Shown: positions 32,566 to 51,939, counted from the first letter of the stretch. The stretch is DNA of 63,757 nt from Bacteroidia bacterium (GCA_037969175.1 JBBKWX010000055.1:1-63757), one strand, 5' to 3'. Numbers and translations: made by a program. Notes: generated by a model from the sequence alone, not told the origin.

Positions 32566-32566
32566 A

Positions 32567-36703: not shown

Positions 36704-38179
36704 ATGGCTTACAAAGAATTCAAAACGTTAGGTAAGGATATTCTCATATATGGGGTCATGGGTGTTGTGGCTCGAAGTGTAGGGCTATTGTTACTGCCTA
36801 TTTTTACACGCATCTTCTCAGTTGCTGAATATGGAACTGTAGATATCCTGGCTACGTTTTCAAGTTTGCTTGCAATGGCAATCAATCTCAGCTTGCCAAG
36901 TGCATTAGCGAGATATTATTTTATTAAGGAATATAAGCCGGCCGTTTTATTTAGCACACTATTAAGCGTTATTGCATTATTGAGTGGAGTGTTTTTTCTA
37001 ATTGTATGGGTCTTTGCAGATCCGATTTCATTATTTATTTCCGGTGAAGAAGATGTTTCACTTTATCTTTTACTTGCTGCATTGGCTGCATGCTTTCAGG
37101 GATTGAACAGATTCAGTGATGTGATGTTAAGAATGCAGAAAAGAATTGTTGCTTTCAATAGTTTGAAAATTGGAATAACACTTTTTACTGCGGCACTTTC
37201 ATTGATTGCTGTACTGGTTTTAAATTTAGGCGTTCTTGGAGTTTTCCTTGCCGGAGCCATTGGAGCATTTGCAGATCTGGTAATAGGAATCTGGATGAAT
37301 AGAAATTACCTTACCACCAAATTATCCTTAACTGTTCTTAAATTATCTTATAGATTCTCCATTCCTATGTTTCCCGCTGTTTTTGTGACATGGGCTAATG
37401 CACAAACAAGCAGAGTATTATTGCTGACAACTCTAGGGCTAGGAGGAGTGGGTGTTTTTGGTGCGGGAGCAAAAGTAGCCAGTATAGTTTTGCTTTTCAT
37501 CACTGTCTTTCAACAAGCCTGGACTCCTTTTGCAATGGAAATGTTGGAAAAAGCAAACCGAAATTTAGTCTATGAGAAATCAATGAAATATTATTCAGGT
37601 GTTTTTGCATGGATGGGTTTGGTCTTAACCTGTTTTGCTCCTGAAATTATTCGAGTTGTAGCACCTTCAGAATATTTTGAAGCATACACAGTAATTCCCT
37701 GGCTGGTTGGTGCAACGTTTATCCATGGTACCGCTCAGCTTACAAATTTAGGTTCTATCGTTTCCGAGAAAACAGGAATAAATTCAATTGCTGCCTGGTT
37801 GGGTTTTTTAGTGAATTTGAGTTTGTCCTGGTTATTGATCTCGAGATATGGAATTATGGGAGCAGCAGTAGGATCTTTTATTGCTGAAATAATTTTCTCC
37901 GGATTATTATGGAGAAACACGATCAAACAAAGTGATATAAAGTTTGAATCCGGATCGATCTTGAAAATGCTATTTTTATATATTGTAATCAGTTGTGTCA
38001 CACTGTTTATCGTGCATCAGTTTTTAAGTGCTCCATTGATTTCCATAACAGCAAGAATTTTTATTGCTATCATATCCACCTTCTTCTTTTACAATTTGAC
38101 TATCGATCCAATGGCGAAGGCCGGTATGACGAAAGCTATTGTAAGTTTCAAAGGCAAATTGAATCGTCGCAAGCACTAA
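36704..38179 (+). CDS. wzx: Wzx oligosaccharide flippase
   Basis: K..LIYG...V.RSVGLLLLPIFTRIFS.AEYG..D, RFSIPMFP, many TM helices (MOP family). Confidence 0.88.
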   Translation: MAYKEFKTLGKDILIYGVMGVVARSVGLLLLPIFTRIFSVAEYGTVDILATFSSLLAMAINLSLPSALARYYFIKEYKPAVLFSTLLSVIALLSGVFFLIVWVFADPISLFISGEEDVSLYLLLAALAACFQGLNRFSDVMLRMQKRIVAFNSLKIGITLFTAALSLIAVLVLNLGVLGVFLAGAIGAFADLVIGIWMNRNYLTTKLSLTVLKLSYRFSIPMFPAVFVTWANAQTSRVLLLTTLGLGGVGVFGAGAKVASIVLLFITVFQQAWTPFAMEMLEKANRNLVYEKSMKYYSGVFAWMGLVLTCFAPEIIRVVAPSEYFEAYTVIPWLVGATFIHGTAQLTNLGSIVSEKTGINSIAAWLGFLVNLSLSWLLISRYGIMGAAVGSFIAEIIFSGLLWRNTIKQSDIKFESGSILKMLFLYIVISCVTLFIVHQFLSAPLISITARIFIAIISTFFFYNLTIDPMAKAGMTKAIVSFKGKLNRRKH

Positions 38180-39000
38180 TGAATCCAAATTTTATAATAG
38201 CCGGAACACAAAAAGGAGGAACCACTTCTCTTCAGTATTATCTGGATGAGCATCCGGCTTTATGTATGTCTGAGAAAAAGGAAATTCATTTTTTTGATCT
38301 CAATTTTGATAAAACGATTGACTGGTATTTAAAGCATTTTGAAAATTGCAATGAAAACATGATTGCAGGTGAAGCTACTCCATACTATATGTTTCATCCT
38401 GAAGTAGCAAAAAGGATCTATCAAACTTTACCTGGAGTTAAAATAATTTTTGTGCTTCGTGATCCCACGCAAAGAGCGTGGTCGCATTACTGGCATGAAG
38501 TAGTGAAAGGTCGGGAGACACTGAGTTTTGAAAGAGCTCTTGAATTGGAAGAGCAAAGAATTAATTCTGACCCCGCTGCGCATCAGTATAAGTCCTACCG
38601 CAGTAGAGGAGAATATTCAAGACAGATCCAACCATTTATGGAATTATTTGGTAAGGATCAGATTTTGATTCTTTTGAGTGAAGAACTTCGATCCGCTCCT
38701 GAATCAAACCTGAAAAGAATTTTTGAATTTTTGAATGTTGACCCTGATTTTAAATGCAACCGTATTTATGAGAAAGTACGTTATGAAGGACGAGTGCCAA
38801 GAAATAAAAGTCTGAATGCATTGATACAAAATGGATTACTAAGGAATATCCCATTTCTTAAAGGAATCAATAATATCCTTAATTTTGCATCCCGTTCAGA
38901 GCAAATGAACCCGGAGACGAAAAGTGTTCTTGATTCTTATTATCAACCATTTAATAAAGAACTTGCACAACTTCTAAACCGACAATCACTCTGGGCATAG
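38179..39000 (+). CDS. PAPS-dependent sulfotransferase (Sulfotransfer_1 type, HS3ST/NDST-like motifs)
   Basis: 5'PSB loop IIAGTQKGGTTSL, KEIHFFD, GEATP.Y, 3'PB LRDPTQRAWSHY; ATG overlaps the wzx stop. Confidence 0.88.
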   Translation: MNPNFIIAGTQKGGTTSLQYYLDEHPALCMSEKKEIHFFDLNFDKTIDWYLKHFENCNENMIAGEATPYYMFHPEVAKRIYQTLPGVKIIFVLRDPTQRAWSHYWHEVVKGRETLSFERALELEEQRINSDPAAHQYKSYRSRGEYSRQIQPFMELFGKDQILILLSEELRSAPESNLKRIFEFLNVDPDFKCNRIYEKVRYEGRVPRNKSLNALIQNGLLRNIPFLKGINNILNFASRSEQMNPETKSVLDSYYQPFNKELAQLLNRQSLWA

Positions 39001-39014
39001 ATTATACATTCCCA

Positions 39015-39956
39015 ATGAATTCAACACAATTGGTTTTTCTGGCTTACATCAACAGATCAGGGTCTACATTCCTGGCTGAATTGATAAGCGCACATCCCAA
39101 TGTCTGTGTTTGCCCGGAAGCAGAAGTGTTGATACGCATTCTGTTAAGAAAGGAGAAAGAGGAAATATATGATAAAGAAGTTACGATAAAGAAGATCCTT
39201 GCTGCTTTAGCTGAAGATGAAAAATTTTCTTCCTGGGGAATGGATTCGGGCATGATGGCTCTAAGACTTCAACAGGCAGGAAGCAAATTCGAATTGTTTG
39301 AAGTTGTCTTACATGCCTACAGAGATCTTGTAAAACCGGATGCAAGTATAATTGTTTTTAAGGGTACAGAATTACTTAAGGTGTATGGTGAGTTTAATTC
39401 TGAATCAAAACCCATTTGTATTGTAGTTACCCGGGATGGAAGAGCCGCCTTTGCAAGTCAAAAAAAATCAAAGGGTTCATTAAGTGGAATGCCTATGCAG
39501 GTTAGCCCTGTTATTGCTGCAAAACACTGGGCGAATTTTACCAACAAGGTAATTGCCGATGATTCTATCCTCCACATTAAGTATGAAGATCTGGTTGAGA
39601 ATAATACTGAGACCTTAGAACGTGTTTGGTTATTCTTGAATTTAGAATTATCAATTTCTGTGATTCATGAAGGGGATCTTACTTCACGAATTCCGGAAAA
39701 TCAAAAACATTTACATACGAATATTGGAAAAGGACCTATCAAGTCGCGCATTGATTCCTGGAAGAAAGAACTGAGTCCCTCAGAGATTACTTTGTTTGAG
39801 TCAGAAGCCGGAGAAACATTGGCTTCTTTAGATTATCAATTACTTAAACCAATAAAGCAGGGATTTTCAATTTTGATTGCCAGAGTATATTTTGGCATCC
39901 GACATTTTATGAACCAACTCCTGAATCGGATTATTTTAAGATTCAAAAATTCATGA
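39015..39956 (+). CDS. PAPS-dependent sulfotransferase (Sulfotransfer_3 type)
   Basis: YINRSGSTFL 5'PSB loop, RDGRAAFAS 3'PB motif, IKYEDLV, WKKELS. Confidence 0.85.
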   Translation: MNSTQLVFLAYINRSGSTFLAELISAHPNVCVCPEAEVLIRILLRKEKEEIYDKEVTIKKILAALAEDEKFSSWGMDSGMMALRLQQAGSKFELFEVVLHAYRDLVKPDASIIVFKGTELLKVYGEFNSESKPICIVVTRDGRAAFASQKKSKGSLSGMPMQVSPVIAAKHWANFTNKVIADDSILHIKYEDLVENNTETLERVWLFLNLELSISVIHEGDLTSRIPENQKHLHTNIGKGPIKSRIDSWKKELSPSEITLFESEAGETLASLDYQLLKPIKQGFSILIARVYFGIRHFMNQLLNRIILRFKNS

Positions 39957-41155
39957 TAGAACCTTCAGACAATCCTATTTTGATATGCTCTCCTTCCGCA
40001 CCTCCATTGAATTCAGGTGCAGGAACCAATGCGCATAATTTCGGATTGCATTTGATCAAATATGGTTTTAAAGTCAATCATTTTAGCTTCAATTGGAATA
40101 TGAGTTTTCCATCTGTCAGTAATGATTCAGGATTGAAGATCATCAGAGCTCCTTATTTCAAATATAATCCGCTTACAAGAGCAGTATCTGCGCTATTCAC
40201 AGTTCCTGTAATGTTGTATTGTACTTTATTTGCCCGTACCATTTTTATCTATGGCCCAATGAAAGGCTACTTGTTTCTAATCCTGTTTGGTAAATTGACA
40301 GGAAAGAAAGTGGTTTTCAGATCTACGATGTTGGGAGATGATGATATTGTCTCTTTGATTCATAAGTATCCTTATTTTAAATCCTTCCGTAAATGGGCTT
40401 TGTCAAAACTGGGAATGTATTATGCATTGAACCCGGGATTTACAGCTGCTTATTTGAGAACATTTGATTCTAAAGAGAAAGTATTTGAAAGTCCTCAAGG
40501 ATTAGATCTGGAGAGATTCAAGCCGGTTGATGAAAATGAGAAGATCCAACTTCGTGCAGAATTGGGATTACCTGGTAATCTGCCTGTCCTGGTTAGTGTT
40601 GGTTATTTAATAAAAAGAAAAGGATACAGCGAACTGTTCGAGAGTCTTTCAAAATTAAATAGAGATTTCAGGTATGTGGTCATTGGGGATCATACTGTTG
40701 GCCCGGAGCATAATTTATTTTCGAAAAAAGCTGAAATGCAGGCTTTGTATGATAACGGGAAACAACTTCTGGGTGATAAATTGATCTTCACGGGTCCTTT
40801 GCCGGATGTAACAAAATACTTGCAGGCAGCTGATATCTTTTTATTGAATTCTGAGAAAGAGGGAGTTCCTAACGTATTGCTGGAATCAATGGCTTGTGGT
40901 TGTGTACCGGTGATCAAGGAGATAGAAGGCCTCAACGGATTTATCACATTTCCGGGTACAAACGCAATCGTGTATACAGATATTGAAGCACTGAATCCTC
41001 ATTTAGATAAACTTTTGTCTGATGATGCTCTGAGATTCAAGTTAGCAGAAAAATCATTAGATTTCGTAACTGAAAATCTTGACTTCAGAAAAGTCACCAC
41101 AAGAATAATGAATAAATTAGGAGTTCAAATACATCAACTGGAACATGATCAGTAG
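39953..41155 (+). CDS. Glycosyltransferase family 4
   Basis: SVGYLIKRKGY, ADIFLL.SEKEGVPNVLLESMACG. Confidence 0.9.
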   Translation: MIEPSDNPILICSPSAPPLNSGAGTNAHNFGLHLIKYGFKVNHFSFNWNMSFPSVSNDSGLKIIRAPYFKYNPLTRAVSALFTVPVMLYCTLFARTIFIYGPMKGYLFLILFGKLTGKKVVFRSTMLGDDDIVSLIHKYPYFKSFRKWALSKLGMYYALNPGFTAAYLRTFDSKEKVFESPQGLDLERFKPVDENEKIQLRAELGLPGNLPVLVSVGYLIKRKGYSELFESLSKLNRDFRYVVIGDHTVGPEHNLFSKKAEMQALYDNGKQLLGDKLIFTGPLPDVTKYLQAADIFLLNSEKEGVPNVLLESMACGCVPVIKEIEGLNGFITFPGTNAIVYTDIEALNPHLDKLLSDDALRFKLAEKSLDFVTENLDFRKVTTRIMNKLGVQIHQLEHDQ

Positions 41156-42413
41156 AATATTTAAATACAGTTTTGCGTTCCTGATTTTTTTTCTGTTTCT
41201 ATATTTCAGTTACATTAAAGTTTTTGGTGCGGAGATAAATCTGCTTTGGAAGATTCCAATTCTGATCTATGCCGTTTTTCTTTTCATTGCTAATTTCAAT
41301 GGAACATTTCCAAAGTATTTTTTTTACGGGATTCTGTTCTCCATAAAAAACCTGATCAACGTAGGTCCAATATCCTATTTTTTGGCATCTATGATGGAAC
41401 TTTTTAAATATTCAGTTATTCCATTATTTACTGAAATGTTTAGAATAATTTATCGGAGGAAGCCATTAAAATTGGAAGGCCTGGCCAAAATTATAAGTGT
41501 TTTTATAATCTTATCAGCTCTGCCTTTTTTGCTTGGAATTGTTAATCAACCCGTAGCATCTGACAACCTGGAGAAATTTGGTTTATCGAATGCACATATT
41601 TTTATTGGTGTATTTTTAAAAGGCCACTCTGCTTCTATCTCATTTTCTTCAGCAGCTCTTATGTTACTGATCTATTTTAATCGTGAAAAAGATCAGCTGA
41701 CGAAATTATTTTACTTCTTGTTAATAGCTTTAGCTACGTATGTAATTTACAAGACCTATGTAAGAACCGGATGGGTGATTTATCTTGCAGGTGGATTTTT
41801 CATTTATTTCTGGGGACAAAAATTCTCAGTTATAATTAAAAGAGTGCCGTTATTGTTGGTGGGAATTGGAGGTCTCGCTGCATTATACTTAAGTTCACCG
41901 GCCTTACAATTGCGATTAACAGATAGCAATATCTGGAAAGAAGAGCAGAATGTGGAAACTGTAAATCTGGGTTCAGGAAGATTGAAATATGCTGAGACTT
42001 CGATTAATTACTGGACAGATAGTGGAGTAGGAGGTATTGTATTAGGACTGGGGATAGAACATGCCAGGGATCTGATGGCTGATGCTGTTGGTAAGCGACT
42101 TGTAGCTCATAATGGATTTATTAATATAATTCAAAATACAGGATTGTTGGGTGTATTACTATTTGGACTTTTTTCCTACTACATGATTAAAATTACCCTG
42201 AATCTGAGAAAGAGTTCATTATTACGATTACCGCTTAATACATTGATGCTTGCCTATTTTTTCACACTTTTATTTCAAGGTGCGCATTATATCTGGATCC
42301 AGATCTTGCTTTCAATATATTTGGCATTGGCCCTGCTGGAGCAAGAACAATATAAAATACAAAACGCCAAATTAGCTGAGTTGGAAAAAGGGAAAGACAG
42401 TGATGAAAAATAA
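41145..42413 (+). CDS. O-antigen ligase/polymerase family (Wzy/WaaL-like) membrane protein
   Basis: Polytopic; TYVRTGW, SGRL, LG.G, AHNGFINII motifs of the O-antigen ligase-related fold. Confidence 0.75.
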   Translation: MISRIFKYSFAFLIFFLFLYFSYIKVFGAEINLLWKIPILIYAVFLFIANFNGTFPKYFFYGILFSIKNLINVGPISYFLASMMELFKYSVIPLFTEMFRIIYRRKPLKLEGLAKIISVFIILSALPFLLGIVNQPVASDNLEKFGLSNAHIFIGVFLKGHSASISFSSAALMLLIYFNREKDQLTKLFYFLLIALATYVIYKTYVRTGWVIYLAGGFFIYFWGQKFSVIIKRVPLLLVGIGGLAALYLSSPALQLRLTDSNIWKEEQNVETVNLGSGRLKYAETSINYWTDSGVGGIVLGLGIEHARDLMADAVGKRLVAHNGFINIIQNTGLLGVLLFGLFSYYMIKITLNLRKSSLLRLPLNTLMLAYFFTLLFQGAHYIWIQILLSIYLALALLEQEQYKIQNAKLAELEKGKDSDEK

Positions 42414-43248
42414 AGACAATTCTTTGGTATGCTTTGTACACATTGAGAAAGCTGCAGGCACTACCTTACATCATATTTTCATCAATAACATTCCTACGTA
42501 TGTAACGCTTAAGCCTTGGTACTATTGGTCGAATCAACCGGGAAATGACCTTAATACGGATGAGGCGAAATTTCTGCTTTCCAAAATCCCAAAACTAAAA
42601 GCATTCGGTGGTCATACAGTAAGATCCTATCATGATTATGAAAGTGCACTGGGAAGAAAAATTCAATATTTTACATTCTTGAGACAGCCTGTATCACGCT
42701 ATATTTCTCACTTTCGCTATCAGCGTGATATCATGAATAAAGACTGGACCATTGAAACATTTTTAGCAGAGAAGAGATTTGATAATTATATGACTCGCCG
42801 AATTTCTCCATCAGGAGATGTGAATGAAGCGATGGATGTGTTAAAGAATAAATATGCATTCACCGGATTGATGGAGGATTTTGACAGAAGTCTTTTATTG
42901 ATGAAAGATAATTTGGATCTGATTGACTTTGATGTTGCTTACGAAATACAGAATACCAATGTGAAGAGTGATAAGAAGAAAGATGAACGAATGAATGATG
43001 CAACCATGGCTGCTATTCTGGAATCGAATAAAGATGATATCCTTCTTTATGATTTTGTAAAGAATGAATTGTATCCTTCTTACATTGCTCAATATTCAGG
43101 GAACCTTGATAATGAATTGGCTGAACTTTTAGTTAGAAATGAAACATTTAGCTTTAGTTTTAAAAATAAATATTTTGCAAAAATATTCCAGTTAGGATAT
43201 TACAATCCGCTCGAGCGAATCGGGAAATTTCTTTATCATCGGAGCTAA
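42403..43248 (+). CDS. PAPS-dependent sulfotransferase (Sulfotransfer_2 type)
   Basis: FVHIEKAAGTT 5'PSB loop, TFLRQPVSRYISHF 3'PB motif, DNYMTR, GLMEDFD.S. Confidence 0.8.
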   Translation: MKNKDNSLVCFVHIEKAAGTTLHHIFINNIPTYVTLKPWYYWSNQPGNDLNTDEAKFLLSKIPKLKAFGGHTVRSYHDYESALGRKIQYFTFLRQPVSRYISHFRYQRDIMNKDWTIETFLAEKRFDNYMTRRISPSGDVNEAMDVLKNKYAFTGLMEDFDRSLLLMKDNLDLIDFDVAYEIQNTNVKSDKKKDERMNDATMAAILESNKDDILLYDFVKNELYPSYIAQYSGNLDNELAELLVRNETFSFSFKNKYFAKIFQLGYYNPLERIGKFLYHRS

Positions 43249-43260
43249 TTGCAAGTTGCT

Positions 43261-44340: not shown

Positions 44341-44446
44341 AGCCCTGGTTTAAGCGGGATATTTTCCTTTTATGGATTTTCATGAGGATAGATAGACCAG
44401 ATGCTTGGCTTTTAATTGCAATTGCATTTTTTGGTGAATACGACAT

Positions 44447-46621
44447 ATGAAACAAGTGATTCAGAATTTTAAAACAGGAAAGTTATATGTGGAGGATCTC
44501 CCGGCACCAACATTAAGTTCAGGTATGGTGCTGGTTGAAAATCGTTGTTCATTGATAAGTGCAGGCACTGAGCGTGGTACAGTAAAAGCGGGGAAAGCCA
44601 GTCTTTTAGGTAAAGCAAGGCAAAGACCGGATCTTGTGAAGCAAGTTCTGCAAAATGTAAAGAAAGTAGGACTGAAAGCTACACTAGAAAAAGTTAGAAC
44701 AAAATTAGATTCTTTGGCAGCTCTGGGCTATAGCAGTTCGGGTGTCGTGAGTGCATCCATGGATACCAGTGGAATGTTCAGAGAGGGCGACCGCGTTGCT
44801 TGTGCGGGAGCAGGTTATGCTTCCCATGCTGATATCATCTCCGTGCCTCAAAACCTGGTTGTTAAGATCCCGGATTCTGTTTCTTTTGAGGAAGCAGCTT
44901 TTACAACTCTCGGTGCTATTGCTATGCAAGGCGTACGTCAGGCTGATGCAAGGCTGGGAGAAAAGATCTGTGTCATCGGACTTGGTTTGCTTGGACAAAT
45001 AACTTGTCAGCTCTTGGAAGCCAATGGCTGTAGTGTATTTGGAATTGATCTCTCCACTGAAATGGTCAATCTGGCAAACAAGACCACGCAAACAAAAGCA
45101 TACAGCCGAAATGATGCTAATTTGATGAAGGCTATTGAAAATTTCACCAATGGCCGTGGTTTCGATAGTGTGATCATAACTGCTGCTGCATCAAGCAACG
45201 ATCCTGTTGAACTTTCAGCTGAGATCAGCCGGAAAAAAGGAAAGATCATTATGGTTGGTGCTGTCAAGATGGATCTTCCACGCGAACCGCATTTTTTCAA
45301 GAAGGAGCTCGATCTTAGAATGAGCTGTTCCTATGGCCCCGGTAGATACGATAGTTCTTATGAAGAGAACGGTCATGATTATCCATATGCCTATGTGAGA
45401 TTCACAGAGCAAAGAAATATGGAAGCTTTTCTGGATCTTATTGCATCCGGTAAGATCGATCTTAAACCACTTATTACACATACCTTTCCGGTAGAGCAAG
45501 CCGAAGCAGCTTACGCTTTGGTTTTGGGTGAGGTCAACGAATTTTATATCGGCATTGTACTAACTTACGCAGATAAAAAAGATACTACCCGATTGATCGA
45601 TATCAATCCATTAAAAAGGGAGAAAATAAATGTAGCCTTTATTGGAGCAGGAAGTTTTGCTCAAAGCAACCTGGTTCCTTATGTGAAATCCGCAGGGGCT
45701 TCGCTTGAAACAGTTATCACAAACAGAGGGATCAATGCAAGGAATGCTGCCGAGAAACTGGGCTTCGCGCAAGCCGGTACGGAGGCATCCATGGTTTTGG
45801 ATAATGAAAATATCAATACCGTTTTTATAGCTACTCAACATGATTCTCACGCAGCTTATGTGATGGATAGTATCCGTGCCGGTAAAGATGTATTTGTTGA
45901 AAAACCTTTGTCCATGAAAGAAGAAGATCTTGATGAATTGATCAAGGTGTATTCGGCTTCAGGGAAATCGCGGGTGATGGTTGGTTTCAATCGTAGATTC
46001 GCTCCGGTGAGTGTTGCTTTGAAATCGGAATTTAAAGGTGTGTCAGAACCACTGGTGATGAACTTCAGGATCAATGCAGGATTTCTTCCACTTGACCATT
46101 GGACTCAGGATGCTGAAAAAGGTGGAGGTAGAATTGTGGGTGAGATTTGTCATTTCATCGACCTCATGCAATATTTTTCCGATTCAGATCCGGTAAAGGT
46201 TTATGCTTCTTGTATCAAAACCTCAAATACCGCTATCCGCAAAGAAGACAACATAAGCATCACTGTCGATTTTGCAGACGGATCAATCGGGAATCTGATT
46301 TATCTGGCCAATGCCGATAGCAGTGTTGCCAAGGAGAGAATTGAGATCAGTGCAGGTGGAGTGATGGGATTAATAGATGATTTCCGTGAAGGCTTTATAT
46401 TCCGGAATAATAAAGCTCAAAAATTGAAGCTGCAAGGCAAAGGACATAAACAAGAAGTTGAAGCATTTATTCAGGCTATAAGCGATGGAAATGATTCACC
46501 GATCTCTTTTGAATCAGCTGTGCTTACTACCCGTACTACTTTCAGAATTCAGGATGCTCTTCATACCGGCTTACCTCAACGCATTACGTTAGAGCATGGA
46601 CAGGATCAGGAAGAGCTTTAG
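44447..46621 (+). CDS. Bi-domain oxidoreductase (MDR/Zn-type alcohol dehydrogenase fold fused to Gfo/Idh/MocA)
   Basis: MKQV.QN...G, SAGTE, LGYSSSG, GLGLLG, SYGPGRYD..YE, R.TEQRN; second domain FIGAGSFA, VFVEKP, GFNRRF, GEICHFID. Confidence 0.88.
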   Translation: MKQVIQNFKTGKLYVEDLPAPTLSSGMVLVENRCSLISAGTERGTVKAGKASLLGKARQRPDLVKQVLQNVKKVGLKATLEKVRTKLDSLAALGYSSSGVVSASMDTSGMFREGDRVACAGAGYASHADIISVPQNLVVKIPDSVSFEEAAFTTLGAIAMQGVRQADARLGEKICVIGLGLLGQITCQLLEANGCSVFGIDLSTEMVNLANKTTQTKAYSRNDANLMKAIENFTNGRGFDSVIITAAASSNDPVELSAEISRKKGKIIMVGAVKMDLPREPHFFKKELDLRMSCSYGPGRYDSSYEENGHDYPYAYVRFTEQRNMEAFLDLIASGKIDLKPLITHTFPVEQAEAAYALVLGEVNEFYIGIVLTYADKKDTTRLIDINPLKREKINVAFIGAGSFAQSNLVPYVKSAGASLETVITNRGINARNAAEKLGFAQAGTEASMVLDNENINTVFIATQHDSHAAYVMDSIRAGKDVFVEKPLSMKEEDLDELIKVYSASGKSRVMVGFNRRFAPVSVALKSEFKGVSEPLVMNFRINAGFLPLDHWTQDAEKGGGRIVGEICHFIDLMQYFSDSDPVKVYASCIKTSNTAIRKEDNISITVDFADGSIGNLIYLANADSSVAKERIEISAGGVMGLIDDFREGFIFRNNKAQKLKLQGKGHKQEVEAFIQAISDGNDSPISFESAVLTTRTTFRIQDALHTGLPQRITLEHGQDQEEL

Positions 46622-47768
46622 TGATCTTCGCACTTGGTGTGAAATAGAGCATTTCAGAGGTTGGGATCCTTACGACGGTCTTAATTCCAAGCTTTTCAAA
46701 CTTACTCCATTCTACCGGTTTAAATGGACTCGTTTGATCTGGATGCAGGCTTTCAAACATTTGCCTGTAAATCTTAGATCGATCACGCTTGTTCCTAAAG
46801 AAGAAAATCCGGCAGGCTTGGGTGTTTTTCTTGCAGGTTATTGTGTGCTTTTTAAGAGTGGAAAAGATAAAGGGGAGTTGGCAAAAAGCAGGATTATAAA
46901 ACTTGCTGATCAGCTATTGGATTTGCAAACTCCGGGATGGTCAGGGAGCTGTTGGGGCTACAATTTTCCTTGGCAATCAAGAGCCTTTTTTCTTCCAAAA
47001 TATTATCCTACCATCGTCGCAACTTCACATATTGCAAATGCCTTGCTCGATGCCTATGAGATCACATCGGATGAAAGATATAAGCTTGCTGCTCGATCAG
47101 CGTGTGATTTTATTTTGAAAGATCTCAACAGAAGTGAAAATGAAAACGGTGATTTTATTTTTTCATATTCACCTTCAGATACTACCCGGGTTTATAATGC
47201 ATCTTTATTAGGTTCAAGACTTCTTGCCAGAGTTGCTGCATTGACCAGTGAAAAGGAACTGCTGATTCCGGCAAAAAAAAGTGTGGATTATTGCATGAAA
47301 GATCAGCAAGCCGATGGTTCATGGCTGTATGGCAAGTTGGAGATCCAGGATTGGATAGATAGTTTCCATACAGGGTATAACCTGGAATCACTTTATTATT
47401 ATGCTGAATTTTCAGGTGATCATAGCCATAATGATGGAGTTGCAAAAGGACTGAAATTTTATTTGGAGAATTTCTTTGAACCGGATGGATCTGCGAAATA
47501 TTATCATAACAGAAAATATCCAATAGATCTTAATCCACCCGCTCAATTGATCTTGACCTTATTGGCTGCCGGTAAACTTGAAGAACAAAATGATCTTGCT
47601 AAAAACGTATTGCTTCATGCAATTGAAAAAATGCAGGACAAGAAAGGATATTTTTATTTTCAGGATAAGGGCAAGTTCAAAATCAGGATGCCCTATATGA
47701 GATGGGTGCAAGCCTGGATGTTCTATGCCATGGCAGTTTATCTGTCAAATACAGATTCGGAAAATTAA
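46596..47768 (+). CDS. Cytoplasmic (alpha/alpha)-toroid protein of glycan loci (epimerase/lyase-like, function unknown)
   Basis: GWDPYDGLNS, CWGYNFPWQSR, YNASLLG, WIDSFHTGYNL, YMRW.QAWM; repeated helix-loop pattern; no signal peptide. Confidence 0.6.
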   Translation: MDRIRKSFSDLRTWCEIEHFRGWDPYDGLNSKLFKLTPFYRFKWTRLIWMQAFKHLPVNLRSITLVPKEENPAGLGVFLAGYCVLFKSGKDKGELAKSRIIKLADQLLDLQTPGWSGSCWGYNFPWQSRAFFLPKYYPTIVATSHIANALLDAYEITSDERYKLAARSACDFILKDLNRSENENGDFIFSYSPSDTTRVYNASLLGSRLLARVAALTSEKELLIPAKKSVDYCMKDQQADGSWLYGKLEIQDWIDSFHTGYNLESLYYYAEFSGDHSHNDGVAKGLKFYLENFFEPDGSAKYYHNRKYPIDLNPPAQLILTLLAAGKLEEQNDLAKNVLLHAIEKMQDKKGYFYFQDKGKFKIRMPYMRWVQAWMFYAMAVYLSNTDSEN

Positions 47769-48463
47769 AGTTGATTCGTCAAATAAAGCCAATAGAATTT
47801 AAGCACCGTTTTTTGTCGCGGTAATTTTTTAGGATCGATCAATGCACGATACAAACCTTCATGTGCAATATATTTTTCCCACCACCAGGGAACATCAGCA
47901 ACTTTACCTGCATAAAGATCAAAACTCCCACCCAGTCCGAAGTATAATGCGGGGTGCAGCTTCATCAGGTCATCCATCAGATATTCCTGTTTAGGCGATC
48001 CCATAGCAACAAATACGGCATCCGGTTTTCTTTCCAGAATATCTTTTTTCGTTGCTTCTATGGTTGCAGCATCCAGAAATCCATTCCGGAAATTAGCAAT
48101 TTGTATCCCCGGAAAATCTATGTTTAATCGCTCCACCGTTTTATCAATGATCTCTTGTGATGCACCAATAAAATAAAATTTCTTGGTTTTATAATGCCTT
48201 GAGATATAATCCAGCCATAATTTACAACCGGGATATTTTATTGCCGAAATACCTTTTTTCTTCAAGCCTTTTACAACACTTGACCCATCAGCATAAGCCG
48301 TATGTGTATTTATTAATTGGGTGATACGTTCTTCATGCGTAATGATCTTTGGAGCGCTGAGGGCAATGACCAGAGTAGATGGGAGGCTGTCTAAATAGTC
48401 CAGGAATTCCTCCTTTTCCGTGAAGGCATGTACTTGCTTGTTATAAAATTTATGCTTTTGCAT
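47765..48463 (-). CDS. wecG: WecB/TagA/CpsF family glycosyltransferase (UDP-ManNAcA transferase-like)
   Basis: YADG.SVV, YFIGA, RNGF, PDAVFVAMGSPKQE, GLGGSFD; the only clear minus-strand gene in the window. Confidence 0.85.
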   Translation of the reverse strand: MQKHKFYNKQVHAFTEKEEFLDYLDSLPSTLVIALSAPKIITHEERITQLINTHTAYADGSSVVKGLKKKGISAIKYPGCKLWLDYISRHYKTKKFYFIGASQEIIDKTVERLNIDFPGIQIANFRNGFLDAATIEATKKDILERKPDAVFVAMGSPKQEYLMDDLMKLHPALYFGLGGSFDLYAGKVADVPWWWEKYIAHEGLYRALIDPKKLPRQKTVLKFYWLYLTNQL

Positions 48464-48489
48464 TGGATATCCCAAGGGCTAAAATTATG

Positions 48490-48497
48490 TATATTCG
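48490..48497 (+). promoter_or_regulatory. -7 element variant TATATTCG for the methyltransferase operon
   Basis: Same variant as at 13232 and 25125. Confidence 0.5.
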
Positions 48498-48524
48498 CCT
48501 GTTCATAGAAGAATGATAGGATTG

Positions 48525-48532
48525 CAAAGTTA
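48525..48532 (-). promoter_or_regulatory. -7 element TAACTTTG for wecG (minus strand)
   Basis: CAAAGTTA on the plus strand is an exact TAnnTTTG on the minus strand, followed by C. Confidence 0.6.
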
Positions 48533-48546
48533 GCATTCCCATTCTT

Positions 48547-49335
48547 TTGCTCAAAGGAAGAAAACTTAAATCAAACAAAGTGAACATCAAGCGACTGCTA
48601 AAAGGACTCAATTATCTGCTGATAAATCCAAGATATTTTTATCTGTATTACAATTCCAATGTTGATACAATACTGCAGCGAGTAAATCCGGAAGCAAAAC
48701 CTTTTTCGGAGTATATGGCGGAATTGGATGCTAACACAGCCTATAACACGGAGCTACAGGAAAAAAGTCTTAGCATTGGAAAACGCACTTTCAAGCTTCG
48801 CCCCGAGCATTATTTTTTATACGCGGTTGTTCGTGCCCTTAAACCTGCAAAGATGATGGAAACCGGTGTATTCAATGGATTCTTCACCTCTTGTTATCTG
48901 GCGGCCTTGCATAAGAATCACCTGGAGGGCGGACCTAAAGGTCTTTTGGTATCTATCGATCTTCCGCCGGTTAGTGCTATCAGTGAAAGCACCGACAGGA
49001 TGAGTAAAACCCGACTTCCTGAAGGTCACGGTTCAGGATGGGTGATACCTGATTTCTTACGCGAATATTGGGAATTACATTTGGGAGACAGCAAGGAACT
49101 TTTACCTGCCCTGGTTAAGAAAAATACGGATCTCACCTTGTTCTTTCATGATAGTCTGCATACCTATGAACACATGATGTTTGAATATGAAGTAGTGTGG
49201 CCCTATTTGAAGAATGGCTCCCTGCTTATGAGTCATGATGTACACTGGAACAAAGCATTTCCACATATTGCAACAAAATATTCTCAGAGGGATACCATGT
49301 ACAAAGGAGTTGGATTAATTAAAAAAGTATCCTGA
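48547..49335 (+). CDS. Class I SAM-dependent methyltransferase (Methyltransf_24-like)
   Basis: ETGV.NG..T, L.SIDLP, GSGWVIP, LGDSKELLP, FFHDSLHTYEHMMFEY, HDV.WN. Confidence 0.85.
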   Translation: MLKGRKLKSNKVNIKRLLKGLNYLLINPRYFYLYYNSNVDTILQRVNPEAKPFSEYMAELDANTAYNTELQEKSLSIGKRTFKLRPEHYFLYAVVRALKPAKMMETGVFNGFFTSCYLAALHKNHLEGGPKGLLVSIDLPPVSAISESTDRMSKTRLPEGHGSGWVIPDFLREYWELHLGDSKELLPALVKKNTDLTLFFHDSLHTYEHMMFEYEVVWPYLKNGSLLMSHDVHWNKAFPHIATKYSQRDTMYKGVGLIKKVS

Positions 49336-49353
49336 TCTCCCGATTCCGGACTG

Positions 49354-50487
49354 ATGAAAATTATCCTGACGGATATACTGCACCGCAAGGGATTTGATGT
49401 TTATAATATTCTGAGAAGAAATTATAAACGTGACGAGATCGTATTATTTCTTGACAAACCAGGTGCCTGGAGAAGATTCATGGCAAAGGTTGTTTATGGA
49501 GGCAAGATCCATGACTTGAACAAAGCCTCAGCAAACGATTTTTCTCAAGCTATTAACACTGCCGGTGATCTTAGTGATGCGGTCTTCATCCCTGTTGAAG
49601 AGGACAGTATTAGTTTGTTTTTAGAAGGAGTCGATGCGAATTTGATTAGAAATAAAAAGTATTTACTTCCTTCACAAAATAATTTTTTGCTTGCAGCCGA
49701 TAAACTTTTACTTACTCGTTTTTGTAATCAAAATGATATTCCTGCACCGGAAGAAATAGATCCGTTTGATAGCGAAAGTGAATTTCGCCCATTTATTGCA
49801 AAACCACGTCGTGGCTCCGGTTCAAGCGGAATTGTTATCGTTGAATTTGAAAAGGATCTGGAGAAAATTTCGGGTCTCAGAAAAGATGATTTTGTATTCC
49901 AATCTTTATTGCCCGATGGAAAAAATGTGAAAGGGACTTTTCATCTTTTTCATCAGGGAAAACAAATATCGGCTTATGGACATCAGCGGATCCGTACCTT
50001 TCCACCGGAAGGCGGAGTGACAGTGTATTCCAGATTGGATACAACTGCCGAAGCAATTGAAACCGGTAAATTATTATTGGAAAAACTAAATTGGAATGGA
50101 TTAGCTATGGTGGAGACATTATATGATCCTACAGAAAAAAAACATAAAGTAATTGAAGTAAACCCCCGATTGTGGGGCTCCATTTTACTATCCGAATTTA
50201 CAGGCATACATATGCTAAATGATTATGTAAGATTAGCCTTGTCTATGGATATCAAGCAACATGAGTTGAAGACCAAGGCATATATCAGATGGATTTTTCC
50301 TTTCGATCTTATTGCATATATCAGATCCGGTTTCAGGATAAAAGGATTTTGGAATTTTAATTTTTCTACTACCTGTTATATTAATATGACCTATGCGGGT
50401 TTTTGGAGATCTTTTTTCTTTATATTGATGGGAATACTAGATCCTGCATCAATGCGGAAATTTATTAGAAAAATTTTTAATGGATAA
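49354..50487 (+). CDS. ATP-grasp carboxylate-amine ligase
   Basis: ADK, KPRRGSGSSG, RTFPPEGG, AMVE, IEVNPRLWGS. Confidence 0.85.
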   Translation: MKIILTDILHRKGFDVYNILRRNYKRDEIVLFLDKPGAWRRFMAKVVYGGKIHDLNKASANDFSQAINTAGDLSDAVFIPVEEDSISLFLEGVDANLIRNKKYLLPSQNNFLLAADKLLLTRFCNQNDIPAPEEIDPFDSESEFRPFIAKPRRGSGSSGIVIVEFEKDLEKISGLRKDDFVFQSLLPDGKNVKGTFHLFHQGKQISAYGHQRIRTFPPEGGVTVYSRLDTTAEAIETGKLLLEKLNWNGLAMVETLYDPTEKKHKVIEVNPRLWGSILLSEFTGIHMLNDYVRLALSMDIKQHELKTKAYIRWIFPFDLIAYIRSGFRIKGFWNFNFSTTCYINMTYAGFWRSFFFILMGILDPASMRKFIRKIFNG

Positions 50488-51094
50488 AAAAAGAATACTC
50501 TTTGATTTTGATAAGACCCTTACCTACGACGATTCTTTGCTGGGGTTTTTCGCCTATTGCACTCCCAAAGGATTCCTGTTTCCATTTAAACTCTTGCTGT
50601 ATTTTGTGTACATGGTCTTAGCCAAGTTGAAGATCAAAAGCATCTTGTCTTTAAAGAACTTTGGGATCAGTTTGTTTATTTCAGGAATTGAAAAAGAGAA
50701 ACTTCTGAAATTATCAACTGAATACGCTTTCCGGATCAAAACGAATAAGGTTTACAAGGAAATGTATAAATATGAACACAAGAACGATGAGAAGATAGTA
50801 GTGAGTGCATCCTTTTCGGAATACGTAAAGCCTCTGTTTCCGGATGCTTTGTTGTTGTGTTCTGAATTGATTTACAAAGACAATAAACCCTATAAAGTGG
50901 GTCGACATTGCTTTGGAAAAGAGAAAGTGAAGATGTTACAAGAGCAGGGTATTGAAAGCGTTTATGAGTGCTATACAGATAGTCTGCATGACCTTCCCCT
51001 GATTGAGATGTCCCTGAATAAATTTCTTGTTCGAGGTGATTCCATCATAAGATGTATGTCTGTAGATGAATTTCGTAAATTGGCCGCTCGATGA
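50480..51094 (+). CDS. HAD-IB family hydrolase/phosphatase
   Basis: FDFDKTLT motif I, VVSAS motif II, CFGKEK, YTDSLHDLP motif IV. Confidence 0.85.
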   Translation: MDKKRILFDFDKTLTYDDSLLGFFAYCTPKGFLFPFKLLLYFVYMVLAKLKIKSILSLKNFGISLFISGIEKEKLLKLSTEYAFRIKTNKVYKEMYKYEHKNDEKIVVSASFSEYVKPLFPDALLLCSELIYKDNKPYKVGRHCFGKEKVKMLQEQGIESVYECYTDSLHDLPLIEMSLNKFLVRGDSIIRCMSVDEFRKLAAR

Positions 51095-51939
51095 ACATTC
51101 TCACATTTGACATAGAAGAATGGTTTCATATTCTCGACCATCCAGCAACAAGAACTGAAAAACAATGGGGGAACTTTCCTTCCAGAATCCATTCAAACAT
51201 GGAAAGGATACTTTCAGTTTTGGAAGCTCAGGAACTTAAGGCAACTTTTTTTTGTTTGGGTTGGATAGCTCAAAAATATCCTGAAGTGATACGGCAAATA
51301 AGTGATGCCGGATTTGAAATCGCCAGTCATTCTTCTACTCACCAACTGGTCTATGAGCAAAACAGATCCGAATTTCGGGATGACCTGAAAAGATCGATTC
51401 AAGTGCTGGAAGATGCGACAGGAAAAAAAGTAAGTACGTACAGAGCTCCGGGTTTTTCAATTACATCTAGTGAAAAATGGGCATTTGAAGTAATGGCAGA
51501 ATTAGGTATCGATACAGATTGTTCGATCTTCCCTGCCTCAAGAGGACATGGAGGTTTCAGTGAGTTCGGCTACGCACAACCATGCACGATAAGTTATAAT
51601 GGAATTGAATTAAAAGAATTTCCTATTAATACACATCGGTTTCTGGGCAAGGATATTATTTTCAGCGGAGGTGGCTTTTTTCGAATTTTGCCCTATCCAT
51701 TGATCAGGAAAATGATGAAATCAAGTACCTATGTAATGACCTATTTTCATCCGAGAGATTTTGACCCGGGGCAACCTGTAATAGCGGATCTGCCATTATC
51801 CAGGAAGTTTAAATGTTATGTTGGTTTAAAAAATGCCTTGCCGAAATTTAAGACGTTAACTCAGGAGTTTGAATTTATTGATATTGAACAAGCAAAATCC
51901 TTAATAGATTGGCAACAAGTACCCAAGATCACGCTCTGA
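51091..51939 (+). CDS. Polysaccharide deacetylase (CE4, DUF3473-associated type)
   Basis: LTFDIEEWFH, ATFFCLGW, EIASH, YRAPGFS, DCSIFP, GGGFFR, YFHP.DFD. Confidence 0.88.
   Translation: MNILTFDIEEWFHILDHPATRTEKQWGNFPSRIHSNMERILSVLEAQELKATFFCLGWIAQKYPEVIRQISDAGFEIASHSSTHQLVYEQNRSEFRDDLKRSIQVLEDATGKKVSTYRAPGFSITSSEKWAFEVMAELGIDTDCSIFPASRGHGGFSEFGYAQPCTISYNGIELKEFPINTHRFLGKDIIFSGGGFFRILPYPLIRKMMKSSTYVMTYFHPRDFDPGQPVIADLPLSRKFKCYVGLKNALPKFKTLTQEFEFIDIEQAKSLIDWQQVPKITL

What the first reader, a model, noticed from the sequence alone, without database searches (positions are those of the whole stretch)
38179..51939. Possible bacterial parallel of heparan-sulfate maturation (deacetylase, N/O-sulfotransferases, epimerase-like toroid)
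Seen: ST 38179 has IIAGTQKGGTTSL...LRDP..RAWSHY, resembling the HS3ST/NDST sulfotransferase domain. ST 42403 has the FxH(I/V)xK(T/A)AGT loop of the Sulfotransfer_2 class, which includes HS 2-O- and chondroitin sulfotransferases. The locus also has a CE4 de-N-acetylase (51091), an (alpha/alpha)-toroid protein (46596) and uronic-acid/hexosamine precursor enzymes. Inference: de-N-acetylation, N-sulfation, C5-epimerisation and O-sulfation of a HexNAc-uronate repeat could give a GAG-like polymer, useful as a source of enzymes for chemoenzymatic heparinoids. These motif classes are widespread in bacteria, so the analogy is speculative.
Basis: inference. Interest (0 to 1): 0.55.

Follow-up and report, generated by a model that had tools for sequence, protein, structure and literature searches.

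The report
Sulfated surface-polysaccharide gene cluster
An uncultured Bacteroidota bacterium carries a 35-kb surface-sugar gene cluster with its own sulfate-activation genes and three heparan-type sulfotransferases, so it very probably makes a sulfated polysaccharide, a known kind of system built repeat unit by repeat unit rather than by heparan-style maturation of a finished polymer.

Summary
The observed genes are real. ST 38179 is an HS3ST/NDST-type sulfotransferase. ST 42403 is a Sulfotransfer_2 enzyme whose best solved folds are heparan 2-O and 6-O sulfotransferases. The CE4 deacetylase and an (alpha/alpha)6 toroid are also present.

The heparan-maturation reading is only partly supported. 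This is a Wzx/Wzy repeat-unit locus with WecA, WecG and two GT4 enzymes, a UDP-ManNAcA precursor and no heparosan-type synthase. All tailoring enzymes lack export signals, so they should act in the cytoplasm.

The CE4's recurrent partner in other genomes is an ATP-grasp ligase, GNAT or formyltransferase. That favours de-N-acetylation followed by re-acylation (Wbp/Vim-like), not N-sulfation.

The toroid belongs to a conserved cassette (bi-domain oxidoreductase-toroid-WecG-WecB) that occurs without sulfotransferases. It is still a remote relative of the glucuronyl C5-epimerase family and keeps the Tyr500 and Asn510 equivalents. An epimerase role is therefore open, but independent of sulfation.

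The scan has noted comparable PAPS-plus-sulfotransferase glycan loci in other genomes. Verdict: new member of a known kind.

The parts
18003..19826 (+). SLC13/CitMHS-type anion (sulfate) transporter with TrkA_C domains
   Evidence: Pfam CitMHS 1.3e-52, Na_sulph_symp 1.2e-12
19826..20431 (+). CysC, APS kinase
   Evidence: PF01583 1.2e-66
20435..21340 (+). CysD, ATP sulfurylase small subunit. It is the only PAPS_reduct-family gene found in the genome, so no CysH was found.
   Evidence: PF01507 1.8e-46; own-genome scan
21270..22631 (+). CysN, ATP sulfurylase GTPase subunit
   Evidence: GTP_EFTU 6.4e-44
22631..23440 (+). CysQ-like 3'(2'),5'-bisphosphate nucleotidase (PAP removal)
   Evidence: Inositol_P 1.6e-45
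23430..25094 (+). RemB/Wzi-like protein with no Pfam hit. In the sister family it lies next to CE4.
   Evidence: Atlas clusters 'gliding motility protein RemB' and Caps_assemb_Wzi at 15%; synteny
25158..27510 (+). WecB (UDP-GlcNAc 2-epimerase) and WecC (UDP-ManNAc dehydrogenase), giving UDP-ManNAcA
   Evidence: TIGR00236 486.8 bits; NF008286 558.3 bits, both above cut-off
27511..35081 (+). Amino-sugar tailoring block: two SDR epimerase/dehydratases, a DegT aminotransferase, an AsnB/WbpS-like amidotransferase, a formyltransferase, a WbmS-like deacetylase and a hexapeptide N-acyltransferase
35122..36693 (+). Polytopic membrane protein of about 8 TM segments, unassigned
   Evidence: no Pfam or NCBIfam hit; hydropathy
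36704..38179 (+). Wzx flippase
   Evidence: Polysacc_synt 8.2e-13
38179..39000 (+). ST1, an HS3ST/NDST-type PAPS sulfotransferase, cytoplasmic
39015..39956 (+).
   Evidence: PF13469 2.9e-11; TPST2 9e-5
39953..41155 (+). GT4 glycosyltransferase
   Evidence: Glycos_transf_1 3.3e-23
41145..42413 (+). Wzy polymerase
   Evidence: Wzy_C 1.7e-8; 9 hydrophobic segments
42403..43248 (+). ST2, a Sulfotransfer_2 enzyme with an HS2ST/HS6ST-like fold
43249..44298 (+). GT4-like glycosyltransferase (weak hit)
   Evidence: recurs upstream of the cassette in 13 of 61 loci
44447..46621 (+). Bi-domain oxidoreductase (MDR/ADH_zinc_N plus Gfo/Idh/MocA). Its end overlaps the toroid start by 26 nt.
   Evidence: adjacent to the toroid in 39 of 61 loci
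46596..47768 (+). (alpha/alpha)6 toroid. It belongs to a large uncharacterised family that is remotely related to the GLCE C-terminal domain.
47765..48475 (-). WecG/TagA-family (GT26) ManNAc(A) transferase. It is inverted here but co-directional in related loci.
   Evidence: PF03808 8.7e-35; 47 of 61 loci
48547..51094 (+). Methyltransferase (Methyltransf_24), ATP-grasp ligase and HAD-IB phosphatase
51091..51939 (+). CE4 plus DUF3473 deacetylase (near TIGR03006). The HSSTH and RAP motifs are present.
52025..53092 (+). WecA-type initiating GlcNAc-1-P transferase. This is the end of the locus; UbiA and cox genes follow.
   Evidence: PF00953 7.1e-41; TIGR02380 5.2e-48

Best explanation
The stretch 18003-53092 is one Wzx/Wzy-dependent surface-polysaccharide (capsule or O-antigen type) locus with a built-in sulfation system.

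Shown: the gene content.

Inferred pathway:
1. Sulfate is imported and activated to PAPS by CysD, CysN and CysC, and PAP is removed by CysQ.
2. WecA starts a repeat unit on undecaprenyl phosphate with GlcNAc-1-P.
3. WecG adds ManNAcA made by WecB and WecC, and two GT4 enzymes add further modified amino sugars or uronic acids. These may be amidated by the AsnB-like enzyme, and N-formylated or N-acylated.
4. Three cytoplasmic PAPS-dependent sulfotransferases (HS3ST-type, TPST-like and HS2ST/6ST-like) each sulfate a defined position of the lipid-linked unit or its nucleotide-sugar precursor. These are most probably hydroxyl groups.
5. The CE4 enzyme removes an N-acetyl group so that the ATP-grasp ligase can re-acylate the amine. 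This parallels VimE and VimA in the Wbp/Vim linking-sugar pathway.
6. The bi-domain oxidoreductase and the toroid form a separate conserved module tied to WecG and WecB. They probably change the stereochemistry of the ManNAc(A)-type residue. C5-epimerisation of a uronate is the best single guess.
7. Wzx flips the finished unit and Wzy polymerises it.
For: Sulfation system. All three sulfotransferases have intact PSB and PB motifs, and ST1 is closest to the HS3STs. The genome's only sulfotransferases and its only CysD-family gene are in this locus, and no CysH was found, so the PAPS is made for sulfation.

Location of tailoring. No signal peptide or TM segment is seen in ST1, ST3, ST2, CE4 or the toroid.

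Conservation. A sister family keeps a compact version at the same chromosomal site, in the order CysCDNQ-Wzx-Wzy-ST-GT4-GT4-GNAT-CE4-RemB-like, followed by WecA in most. This was seen in 14 of 16 loci fetched.

CE4 partners. Outside the order, CE4 orthologues sit next to an ATP-grasp or HAD gene (4 loci), a GNAT (2) or a formyltransferase (3), out of 14 loci. An ST1-like gene lies nearby in only 1.

Toroid cassette. The bi-domain oxidoreductase-toroid-WecG-WecB cassette appears in 39-47 of 61 loci of at least 17 kb, and fusions of the toroid to WecG, GT4, GT2 and AsnB domains exist.

Toroid homology. hhalign to PF06662 proteins gives 94.7%, E 5.6e-8, in register. The AGE family gives 87% and GH88 64%, both out of register. 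Y191 and N201 are invariant and match GLCE Y500 and N510 (PMC13308652).

Precedents. PAPS genes plus sulfotransferases in a polysaccharide cluster are described as a hallmark of sulfated CPS (PMC11641403). The Wbp/Vim pathway is described in PMC7468200.
Against: There is no chemistry: the glycan is unknown and no enzyme here has been assayed.

N- and O-sulfation cannot be told apart from sequence.

The toroid lacks the GLCE Glu499 equivalent (Ser190) and has His258/Phe257 at the Tyr578 position. Structure searches put GH76 and AGE epimerases on top, and GLCE is not among the 50 listed.

A UDP-sugar 6-dehydrogenase was found within 10 kb of the toroid in only 15 of 61 loci.

A VimA-family (TIGR03019) gene was not found in this genome.

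The genome is a 92%-complete draft.
Confidence: 0.78

Rival explanations
1. A HexNAc-uronate backbone is matured as heparan sulfate is: CE4 de-N-acetylates, ST1 N-sulfates the free amine, the toroid C5-epimerises the uronate, and the other sulfotransferases O-sulfate. The product is a GAG-like polymer.
For: ST1 is homologous to the NDST1 sulfotransferase domain (9e-15). The NDST1 deacetylase domain is also a metal-dependent (beta/alpha)7 His-His-Asp deacetylase (PMC10864358). In the sister family, a single ST and the CE4 are kept in one compact locus with the PAPS genes. The toroid is a remote homologue of the GLCE C-terminal family. ST2 resembles HS2ST and HS6ST.
Against: - ST1 is closer to the 3-O-sulfotransferases and has their E-I-H-F-F-D motif.
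- The CE4's nearest neighbours are N-acylating enzymes, both here and in 9 of 14 loci outside the order. A sulfotransferase is nearby in only 1 of 14.
- The toroid cassette occurs with no sulfotransferase or CE4 in 61 of 61 loci.
- No heparosan-type synthase is present, the uronate precursor is ManNAcA, and assembly is by Wzx/Wzy.
- The enzymes are cytoplasmic.
- The CE4 profile gives no sequence hit to NDST.
Confidence: 0.08
2. The locus is a composite of two glycan systems at one site. One is a conserved core: the PAPS genes, the CE4 with its acylating partner, the RemB/Wzi-like protein, WecA, WecB and WecC. This core would be related to the anchor or linking-sugar glycan used by type IX secretion in Bacteroidota. 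The other is an inserted, strain-variable O-antigen or capsule block carrying the three sulfotransferases.
For: The core genes are syntenic with the sister family's compact locus. The segment from about 34 to 44 kb is AT-richer (GC 0.34-0.37 against 0.38-0.42). ST1 has no relative above about 46% identity in 40 related genomes or in the metagenomes searched. The window encodes T9SS CTD proteins. The Wbp/Vim elements AsnB (WbpS-like), DegT, hexapeptide transferase and CE4 are present (PMC7468200).
Against: Only one Wzx and one Wzy are present in the window. No VimA-family gene was found. The DegT best matches 4-aminotransferases, not WbpE.
Confidence: 0.25
3. The sulfotransferases modify something other than the polysaccharide, for example a glycolipid, lipid A/core or a small metabolite, and are only co-located with the glycan genes.
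For: Bacterial sulfotransferases of these Pfam families also act on glycolipids and Nod factors (PMC11625862).
Against: The three genes are interleaved and tightly packed with Wzx, GT4 and Wzy (36704-44298). The ST1 start overlaps the Wzx stop.
Confidence: 0.05

Closest known systems
Sulfated capsular polysaccharide clusters of Vibrio sp. KMM 8419 and Cobetia marina KMM 1449 (PMC11641403, PMC11766843), and the synechan xss cluster of Synechocystis (PMC8205485)
   Same: Extra cysD, cysN and cysC (and cysQ or a permease) copies sit with several sulfotransferase genes inside a polysaccharide assembly cluster. Sulfation is predicted to occur in the cytoplasm before export.
   Different: This locus is in an uncultured Bacteroidota genome. 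It is purely Wzx/Wzy-dependent, has three sulfotransferases from three Pfam families, and uses ManNAcA and amino-uronate chemistry. The genome appears to have no assimilatory CysH, so the PAPS module is dedicated to sulfation.
Animal heparan sulfate maturation (NDST, GLCE, HS2ST, HS6ST, HS3ST)
   Same: The sulfotransferase families are homologous: ST1 matches HS3ST5 at 2e-23, and the ST2 fold matches HS2ST and HS6ST. A metal-dependent deacetylase is present. The toroid is a remote homologue of the GLCE C-terminal domain and keeps the Tyr500 and Asn510 equivalents.
   Different: There is no GlcA-GlcNAc synthase. Modification is at repeat-unit level in the cytoplasm, not at polymer level in a lumen. 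The deacetylase is coupled to an ATP-grasp ligase. The toroid lacks the GLCE beta domains and Glu499, and it is genetically independent of the sulfotransferases.
Halobacterium salinarum N-glycan pathway: Agl32 C5-epimerase plus two sulfotransferases (PMC12624080, PMC13308652, PMC11980604)
   Different: Sequence homology to Agl32 or AglQ could not be tested here because no sequence reference was available. Agl32 is reported to lack all GLCE catalytic residues, whereas this toroid keeps two or three of them. The substrate here would be a ManNAcA-type residue, not GlcA.
Wbp/Vim linking-sugar pathway of Porphyromonas gingivalis and Tannerella forsythia (PMC7468200)
   Same: It has a CE4 deacetylase (VimE) paired with an enzyme that puts an amino acid on the freed 2-amine, a WbpS-type AsnB amidotransferase, a DegT aminotransferase, a hexapeptide acetyltransferase and GT4 enzymes. 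The host phylum uses T9SS.
   Different: An ATP-grasp ligase and a HAD phosphatase stand where VimA (FemAB/GNAT-like) would be. TIGR03019 was not found in the genome. No sulfation is known in the Wbp/Vim pathway.

Membership tests
Sulfotransfer_1, HS3ST/NDST branch (ST1) | Pfam PF00685 score above the gathering cut-off | tested here: met
   60.2 bits against 22
Sulfotransfer_1, HS3ST/NDST branch (ST1) | 5'-PSB loop with catalytic Lys, 3'-PB Arg/Ser, and catalytic Glu in E-x-H-F-F-D | tested here: met
   QKGGTT, LRDP..RAWS and KEIHFFD aligned to HS3ST5 RKGGTR and QEIHFFD
Sulfotransfer_1, HS3ST/NDST branch (ST1) | N-sulfotransferase-specific Lys833 loop of NDST1 (PMC3733922) | tested here: inconclusive
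   The alignment to NDST1 ends at query residue 191-192, before that loop
Sulfotransfer_1, HS3ST/NDST branch (ST1) | Activity on heparan-type GlcN (3-OH or N) | not testable with these tools
   Needs a PAPS assay
Sulfotransfer_2 (ST2) | Pfam PF03567 above cut-off, and a fold like HS2ST/HS6ST | tested here: met
   28.3 bits against 22. Foldseek gives 4ndz 7.8e-7 and 5t03 1.7e-4 with TM about 0.5. Homologues carry PF03567 and PF06990.
D-glucuronyl C5-epimerase (PF06662 / GLCE) (toroid) | Pfam PF06662 hit above the gathering cut-off | tested here: not met
   No hit at E<=0.01 for P0004. No match in the own genome. Nine of 65 family members give weak hits, best 4.9e-7.
D-glucuronyl C5-epimerase (PF06662 / GLCE) (toroid) | Detectable homology to the family by profile-profile comparison | tested here: met
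   hhalign 94.7%, E 5.6e-8, 236 columns, in register. Controls: AGE 87.4% and GH88 64.4%, both out of register.
D-glucuronyl C5-epimerase (PF06662 / GLCE) (toroid) | Catalytic residues E499, Y500, N510, Y560, Y578 (PMC13308652) | tested here: not met
   Y191 matches Y500 and N201 matches N510; both are 65/65 invariant with spacing 10. Y245 may match Y560 with a one-residue shift. S190 stands at E499, and H258/F257 at Y578.
D-glucuronyl C5-epimerase (PF06662 / GLCE) (toroid) | N-terminal beta-hairpin and beta-sandwich domains (animal GLCE) | tested here: not met
   The 390-aa model is all-alpha. Bacterial PF06662 proteins found in the phylum are also short, at 309-352 aa.
AGE superfamily 2-epimerases/isomerases (toroid) | Fold similarity and the catalytic His pair | tested here: inconclusive
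CE4 / XrtA-type polysaccharide deacetylase TIGR03006 (CE4) | Pfam PF01522 and PF11959 above cut-off, and the NCBIfam equivalog cut-off | tested here: inconclusive
   Pfam is met at 80.3 and 113.9 bits. TIGR03006 scores 249.8 bits, below its cut-off of 276.2. The HSSTH and RAP motifs are present.
Sulfated-polysaccharide biosynthetic cluster (PAPS genes + sulfotransferases + assembly genes) | cysD/N/C, at least one sulfotransferase, and GT/Wzx/Wzy genes in one cluster (PMC11641403) | tested here: met
Heparan-sulfate-type maturation pathway | GlcA-HexNAc backbone made by a processive synthase and modified at polymer level outside the cytoplasm | tested here: not met
   Only WecA, GT26 and GT4 transferases are present with Wzx/Wzy. 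The modifiers have no export signals. The uronate dehydrogenase is of the UDP-ManNAc type.
Wbp/Vim linking-sugar pathway | VimE-type CE4 paired with a VimA (TIGR03019) aminoacyl transferase | tested here: not met
   CE4 is present, but TIGR03019 was not found in G000. An ATP-grasp ligase is adjacent instead.

The most novel reading that the evidence does not exclude
The 46596 toroid represents a very large, uncharacterised bacterial family, often mislabelled 'delta-aminolevulinic acid dehydratase'. It may be a new branch of uronate or hexosaminuronate C5-epimerases related to GLCE.

In this reading it works with the fused MDR and Gfo/Idh/MocA oxidoreductase on the ManNAc(A) residue handled by WecG and WecB, producing rare L-configured amino-uronic acids such as L-GulNAcA. 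It would be a bacterial counterpart of archaeal Agl32.

In this particular locus, epimerisation and triple sulfation of a lipid-linked unit would together give a truly GAG-like glycan.
Probability: 0.3. Interest if true: 0.7.

Novelty: new member of a known kind. Interest (0 to 1): 0.45.

Why it matters
Bacterial sulfated polysaccharides are rare in the literature, and their sulfotransferases are almost all uncharacterised.

This locus offers three soluble, signal-less sulfotransferases. All are related to heparan 3-O, 2-O/6-O or tyrosyl-protein sulfotransferases, and all come from a genome whose PAPS pathway seems to exist only to feed them. That makes them reasonable candidates for chemoenzymatic sulfation.

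The wider result is that the toroid family occurs in thousands of glycan loci, is tied to WecG and WecB, and is remotely related to glucuronyl C5-epimerase. If that holds, it would assign a function to a common unknown gene and might explain how L-hexosaminuronic acids are made.

The sister family's strictly conserved sulfated-glycan locus also suggests a conserved, not serotype-variable, sulfated surface glycan in this lineage.

Tried and rejected
- Metagenome scan for close ST1 relatives: nothing above 45% identity over the best aligned segment (41-44% over comparable lengths), and no syntenic locus.
- Sequence search of the toroid against PDB chains: no single-sequence hits. The profile hits only cellobiose 2-epimerases and squalene cyclases weakly.
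- GLCE does not appear among the 50 rows listed by either structure search. This does not exclude it.
- NCBIfam has no model for the sulfotransferases, the toroid or the two unassigned proteins.
- Naming the organism failed. Conserved proteins are singletons at 90% identity with no named members.
- VimA family TIGR03019: not found in this genome. In the four sister-family genomes searched it gave only weak sub-threshold hits on other contigs.
- Literature search for the oxidoreductase plus heparinase-like pair gave nothing.
- Rejected idea: that ST-CE4 linkage in the sister family proves NDST-like coupling. There a GNAT sits directly upstream of CE4, and outside the order CE4 pairs with acylating enzymes.
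- The tallies include the unpublished genome G018.

Full report
**What is there**

The window is almost entirely + strand and comes from a Bacteroidota genome. T9SS C-terminal sorting domains lie at 1-1835, and a 2387-aa ORF at 4961-12124 was not scanned. The assembly is a 3.09-Mb, 254-contig draft, 92% complete.

From 18003 to 53092 the window holds one polysaccharide locus. Its genes, in order:
- An SLC13-type anion transporter, CysC, CysD, CysN and a CysQ-like nucleotidase.
- A RemB/Wzi-like protein.
- WecB and a UDP-ManNAc dehydrogenase, both above NCBIfam cut-offs.
- Two SDRs and a DegT aminotransferase whose best matches are 4-aminotransferases.
- An AsnB/WbpS-like amidotransferase, a formyltransferase, a WbmS-like deacetylase and a hexapeptide acyltransferase.
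- An 8-TM protein with no assignment, then Wzx.
- ST1, ST3, a GT4 enzyme, Wzy, ST2 and a GT4-like enzyme.
- A 724-aa fused MDR plus Gfo/Idh/MocA oxidoreductase, then the toroid.
- An inverted WecG.
- A methyltransferase, an ATP-grasp ligase, a HAD-IB phosphatase, the CE4+DUF3473 deacetylase and WecA.

UbiA and cytochrome oxidase genes follow.

**Checking the observation**

ST1 scores 60 bits on Sulfotransfer_1. After a bacterial structural-genomics sulfotransferase (3rnl, 8e-37), its best solved relatives are HS3ST5 (2e-23), HS3ST1, HS3ST3A1 and then NDST1 (9e-15). Its KEIHFFD motif lies on HS3ST5's QEIHFFD.

ST2 passes the Sulfotransfer_2 cut-off. Its homologues carry PF03567 and PF06990. A confident model (pLDDT 92.7) has HS 2-O-sulfotransferase (7.8e-7) and HS 6-O-sulfotransferase (1.7e-4) as its only clear Foldseek matches, with TM about 0.5.

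The CE4 has the HSSTH and RAP motifs.

The toroid model (pLDDT 97.5) is a complete (alpha/alpha)6 barrel.

**It is a dedicated sulfation system**

In this genome the three sulfotransferases are the only members of their families. The only PAPS_reduct-family gene is the CysD of this locus, so no CysH was found (92% completeness applies). PAPS is therefore made for sulfate transfer, not for cysteine synthesis.

None of ST1, ST3, ST2, CE4 or the toroid has a signal peptide or TM segment. Together with Wzx and Wzy, this places tailoring on the cytoplasmic face, on nucleotide sugars or on the undecaprenyl-linked repeat unit. That differs from heparan sulfate, where a finished GlcA-GlcNAc polymer is modified in the Golgi lumen.

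The transferases are WecA, a GT26 (WecG) and GT4 enzymes. There is no heparosan- or chondroitin-type synthase, and the uronate precursor is UDP-ManNAcA.

Published sulfated capsule clusters from Vibrio and Cobetia show the same design: extra cysDNC copies plus several sulfotransferases. The authors call that combination a hallmark of sulfated polysaccharide synthesis (PMC11641403).

**The deacetylase**

In a sister family of the same order, CE4 orthologues (45-59% identity) occur in 49 of 54 genomes sampled.

Sixteen CE4 loci were fetched from the order: 14 from the sister family and 2 from two other families. All 14 sister-family loci have the same compact arrangement: CysC-CysD-CysN-CysQ-Wzx-Wzy-ST-GT4-GT4-GNAT-CE4-RemB-like, followed by WecA in most. 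WecB, WecC, a second Wzx and a heparinase II/III-like gene often come next. In the one locus examined in detail (L103) the flanks match the window's: a half-length aldehyde-dehydrogenase-like gene upstream and UbiA downstream.

The window's locus is therefore an expanded version of a lineage-wide sulfated-glycan locus.

This linkage first looked like support for an NDST-like pair. Three points argue against that:
- The gene directly upstream of CE4 there is a GNAT.
- The sister-family ST has KEPCFY in place of KEIHFFD.
- Outside the order, CE4 orthologues are preceded by or next to an ATP-grasp or HAD gene in 4 loci, a GNAT in 2 and a formyltransferase in 3, out of 14. Only one has an ST1-like gene within 10 kb.

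Sulfotransferases of the ST1 type are common in the order (30 of 41 genomes), often in tandem arrays and often without the CE4.

The recurring logic is deacetylate and then re-acylate. That is what VimE and VimA do for the T9SS linking sugar in Porphyromonas and Tannerella (PMC7468200). A VimA-family gene was not found here, and the ATP-grasp ligase is the likely substitute.

N-sulfation is not excluded, but nothing points to it.

**The toroid**

The family is very large. There were 6452 hits among the 8000 candidates scored, and 2803 cluster representatives at E<=1e-3. It is highly conserved, at about 55% identity among the closest hits. It is commonly mislabelled 'delta-aminolevulinic acid dehydratase' or 'YesR'.

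It occurs fused to WecG, GT4, GT2, DUF354 and AsnB domains.

Sixty-one genome loci had at least 17 kb of sequence. The toroid's neighbours in them were:
- WecG in 47.
- The bi-domain oxidoreductase in 39.
- WecB in 35.
- AsnB in 20.
- WecC in 15.
- No sulfotransferase and no CE4 at the 50%-coverage threshold.

The usual order is [GT4][AsnB]-oxidoreductase-toroid-WecG-WecB, all on one strand. In the window WecG is inverted. The toroid is therefore not part of a sulfation pathway.

Pfam gives sub-threshold hits across the clan. Among 65 family members the counts were GH88 25, Pec_lyase 22, C5-epim_C 9 and GH127 9.

I then collected 11 true PF06662 proteins from the same phylum. Profile-profile comparison gave:
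- Against PF06662: 94.7% probability, E 5.6e-8, 236 columns, in register.
- Against an AGE-family control: 87.4%, shifted by hairpins.
- Against a GH88 control: 64.4% over 115 columns.

Human GLCE aligns to the PF06662 profile at 2e-51. This fixes the motifs YEEY(500)PTTPSSFVLN(510)G, TIY(560)DL and RWDY(578)HTTH. The catalytic residue list comes from PMC13308652.

How the toroid matches those positions:
- S190-Y191...N201 has the same Tyr-to-Asn spacing of 10, and both residues are invariant in 65 of 65 sequences.
- W243-x-Y245 lies near the Y560 position, with Tyr in 64 of 65.
- F257-H258-T259 lies at the Y578 position, with His in 65 of 65.
- Glu499 is not conserved.

This is homology with a partly different catalytic set. 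It is not family membership.

A relevant precedent is Halobacterium Agl32. It is a stand-alone 372-aa alpha-toroid whose best solved match is also cellobiose 2-epimerase 5ZIG. It epimerises GlcA to IdoA within a short N-glycan tetrasaccharide, and sulfation follows (PMC12624080, PMC13308652). I could not test sequence homology to Agl32.

My reading, which is inference, is that the oxidoreductase-toroid pair alters the configuration of the ManNAc(A)-type residue handled by WecG. C5-epimerisation is the best single guess, at about 0.3. One caveat is that a 6-dehydrogenase is not consistently adjacent.

**Verdict**

The locus is a sulfated Wzx/Wzy polysaccharide system, a known kind that this scan has also noted in other genomes (e1-4552098, e1-4235914 and others).

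The heparan analogy holds at the level of enzyme families: 3-OST-like, 2-OST/6-OST-like, a metal-dependent deacetylase and a GLCE-related toroid. It does not hold at the level of pathway architecture or gene coupling.

The sulfotransferase block is AT-richer than its surroundings and has no close relatives in related genomes or the metagenomes searched, as expected for a variable serotype region.

**Limits**

The tallies include one unpublished genome (G018), but no claim depends on it.

Noticed in passing
L102-L113, L116, L117 (sister-family genomes); window 17015-25094 and 51091-54078: A sister family of the same order keeps a strictly conserved compact sulfated-glycan locus. The order is CysC-CysD-CysN-CysQ-Wzx-Wzy-ST-GT4-GT4-GNAT-CE4-RemB-like, followed by WecA in most. 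It was found in all 14 sister-family loci examined, and in L103 it lies at the same chromosomal site as the window's locus. Such conservation is unusual for a Wzy-dependent locus and suggests a lineage-wide sulfated common glycan.
   Followed up: partly
window 47765-48475 (-): WecG is the only inverted gene of the locus, and its stop overlaps the toroid's stop. In 47 of 61 related loci WecG follows the toroid on the same strand, and in some genomes the two are fused. The inversion is therefore a local rearrangement of a conserved cassette.
   Followed up: partly
window 20435-21340; whole genome G000: No CysH or other PAPS_reduct-family gene was found elsewhere in the 92%-complete genome. The organism may lack assimilatory sulfate reduction and make PAPS only for sulfation.
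   Followed up: partly
window 17015-17953; L103:629-1558: A half-length aldehyde-dehydrogenase-like ORF of about 310 aa, matching only the N-terminal half of the Pfam model, follows a full-length Aldedh gene. A similar one is found in front of the sister-family locus L103, so it is probably not a simple pseudogene.
   Followed up: no
window 46596-47768 and its family (P0051, P0067, P0079): Members of the toroid family are annotated in public records as 'delta-aminolevulinic acid dehydratase' or 'rhamnogalacturonyl hydrolase YesR'. Neither name fits the fold, the cytoplasmic location or the gene context.
   Followed up: partly
L103:17926-19503: The sister-family locus L103 ends with a heparinase II/III-like protein (Hepar_II_III_N and _C) next to a second Wzx. 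It is another lyase/epimerase-type toroid inside a biosynthetic locus, and it is absent from the window.
   Followed up: no
window 32567-34179: The formyltransferase and the WbmS-like deacetylase have overlapping stop and start. CE4 orthologues in three other phylum members also sit next to a formyltransferase. This suggests a deacetylate-then-formylate route to N-formyl amino sugars.
   Followed up: no
window 35122-36693: A 523-aa protein with about 8 hydrophobic segments has no Pfam or NCBIfam match and no homologue near the toroid or CE4 in any fetched locus.
   Followed up: no
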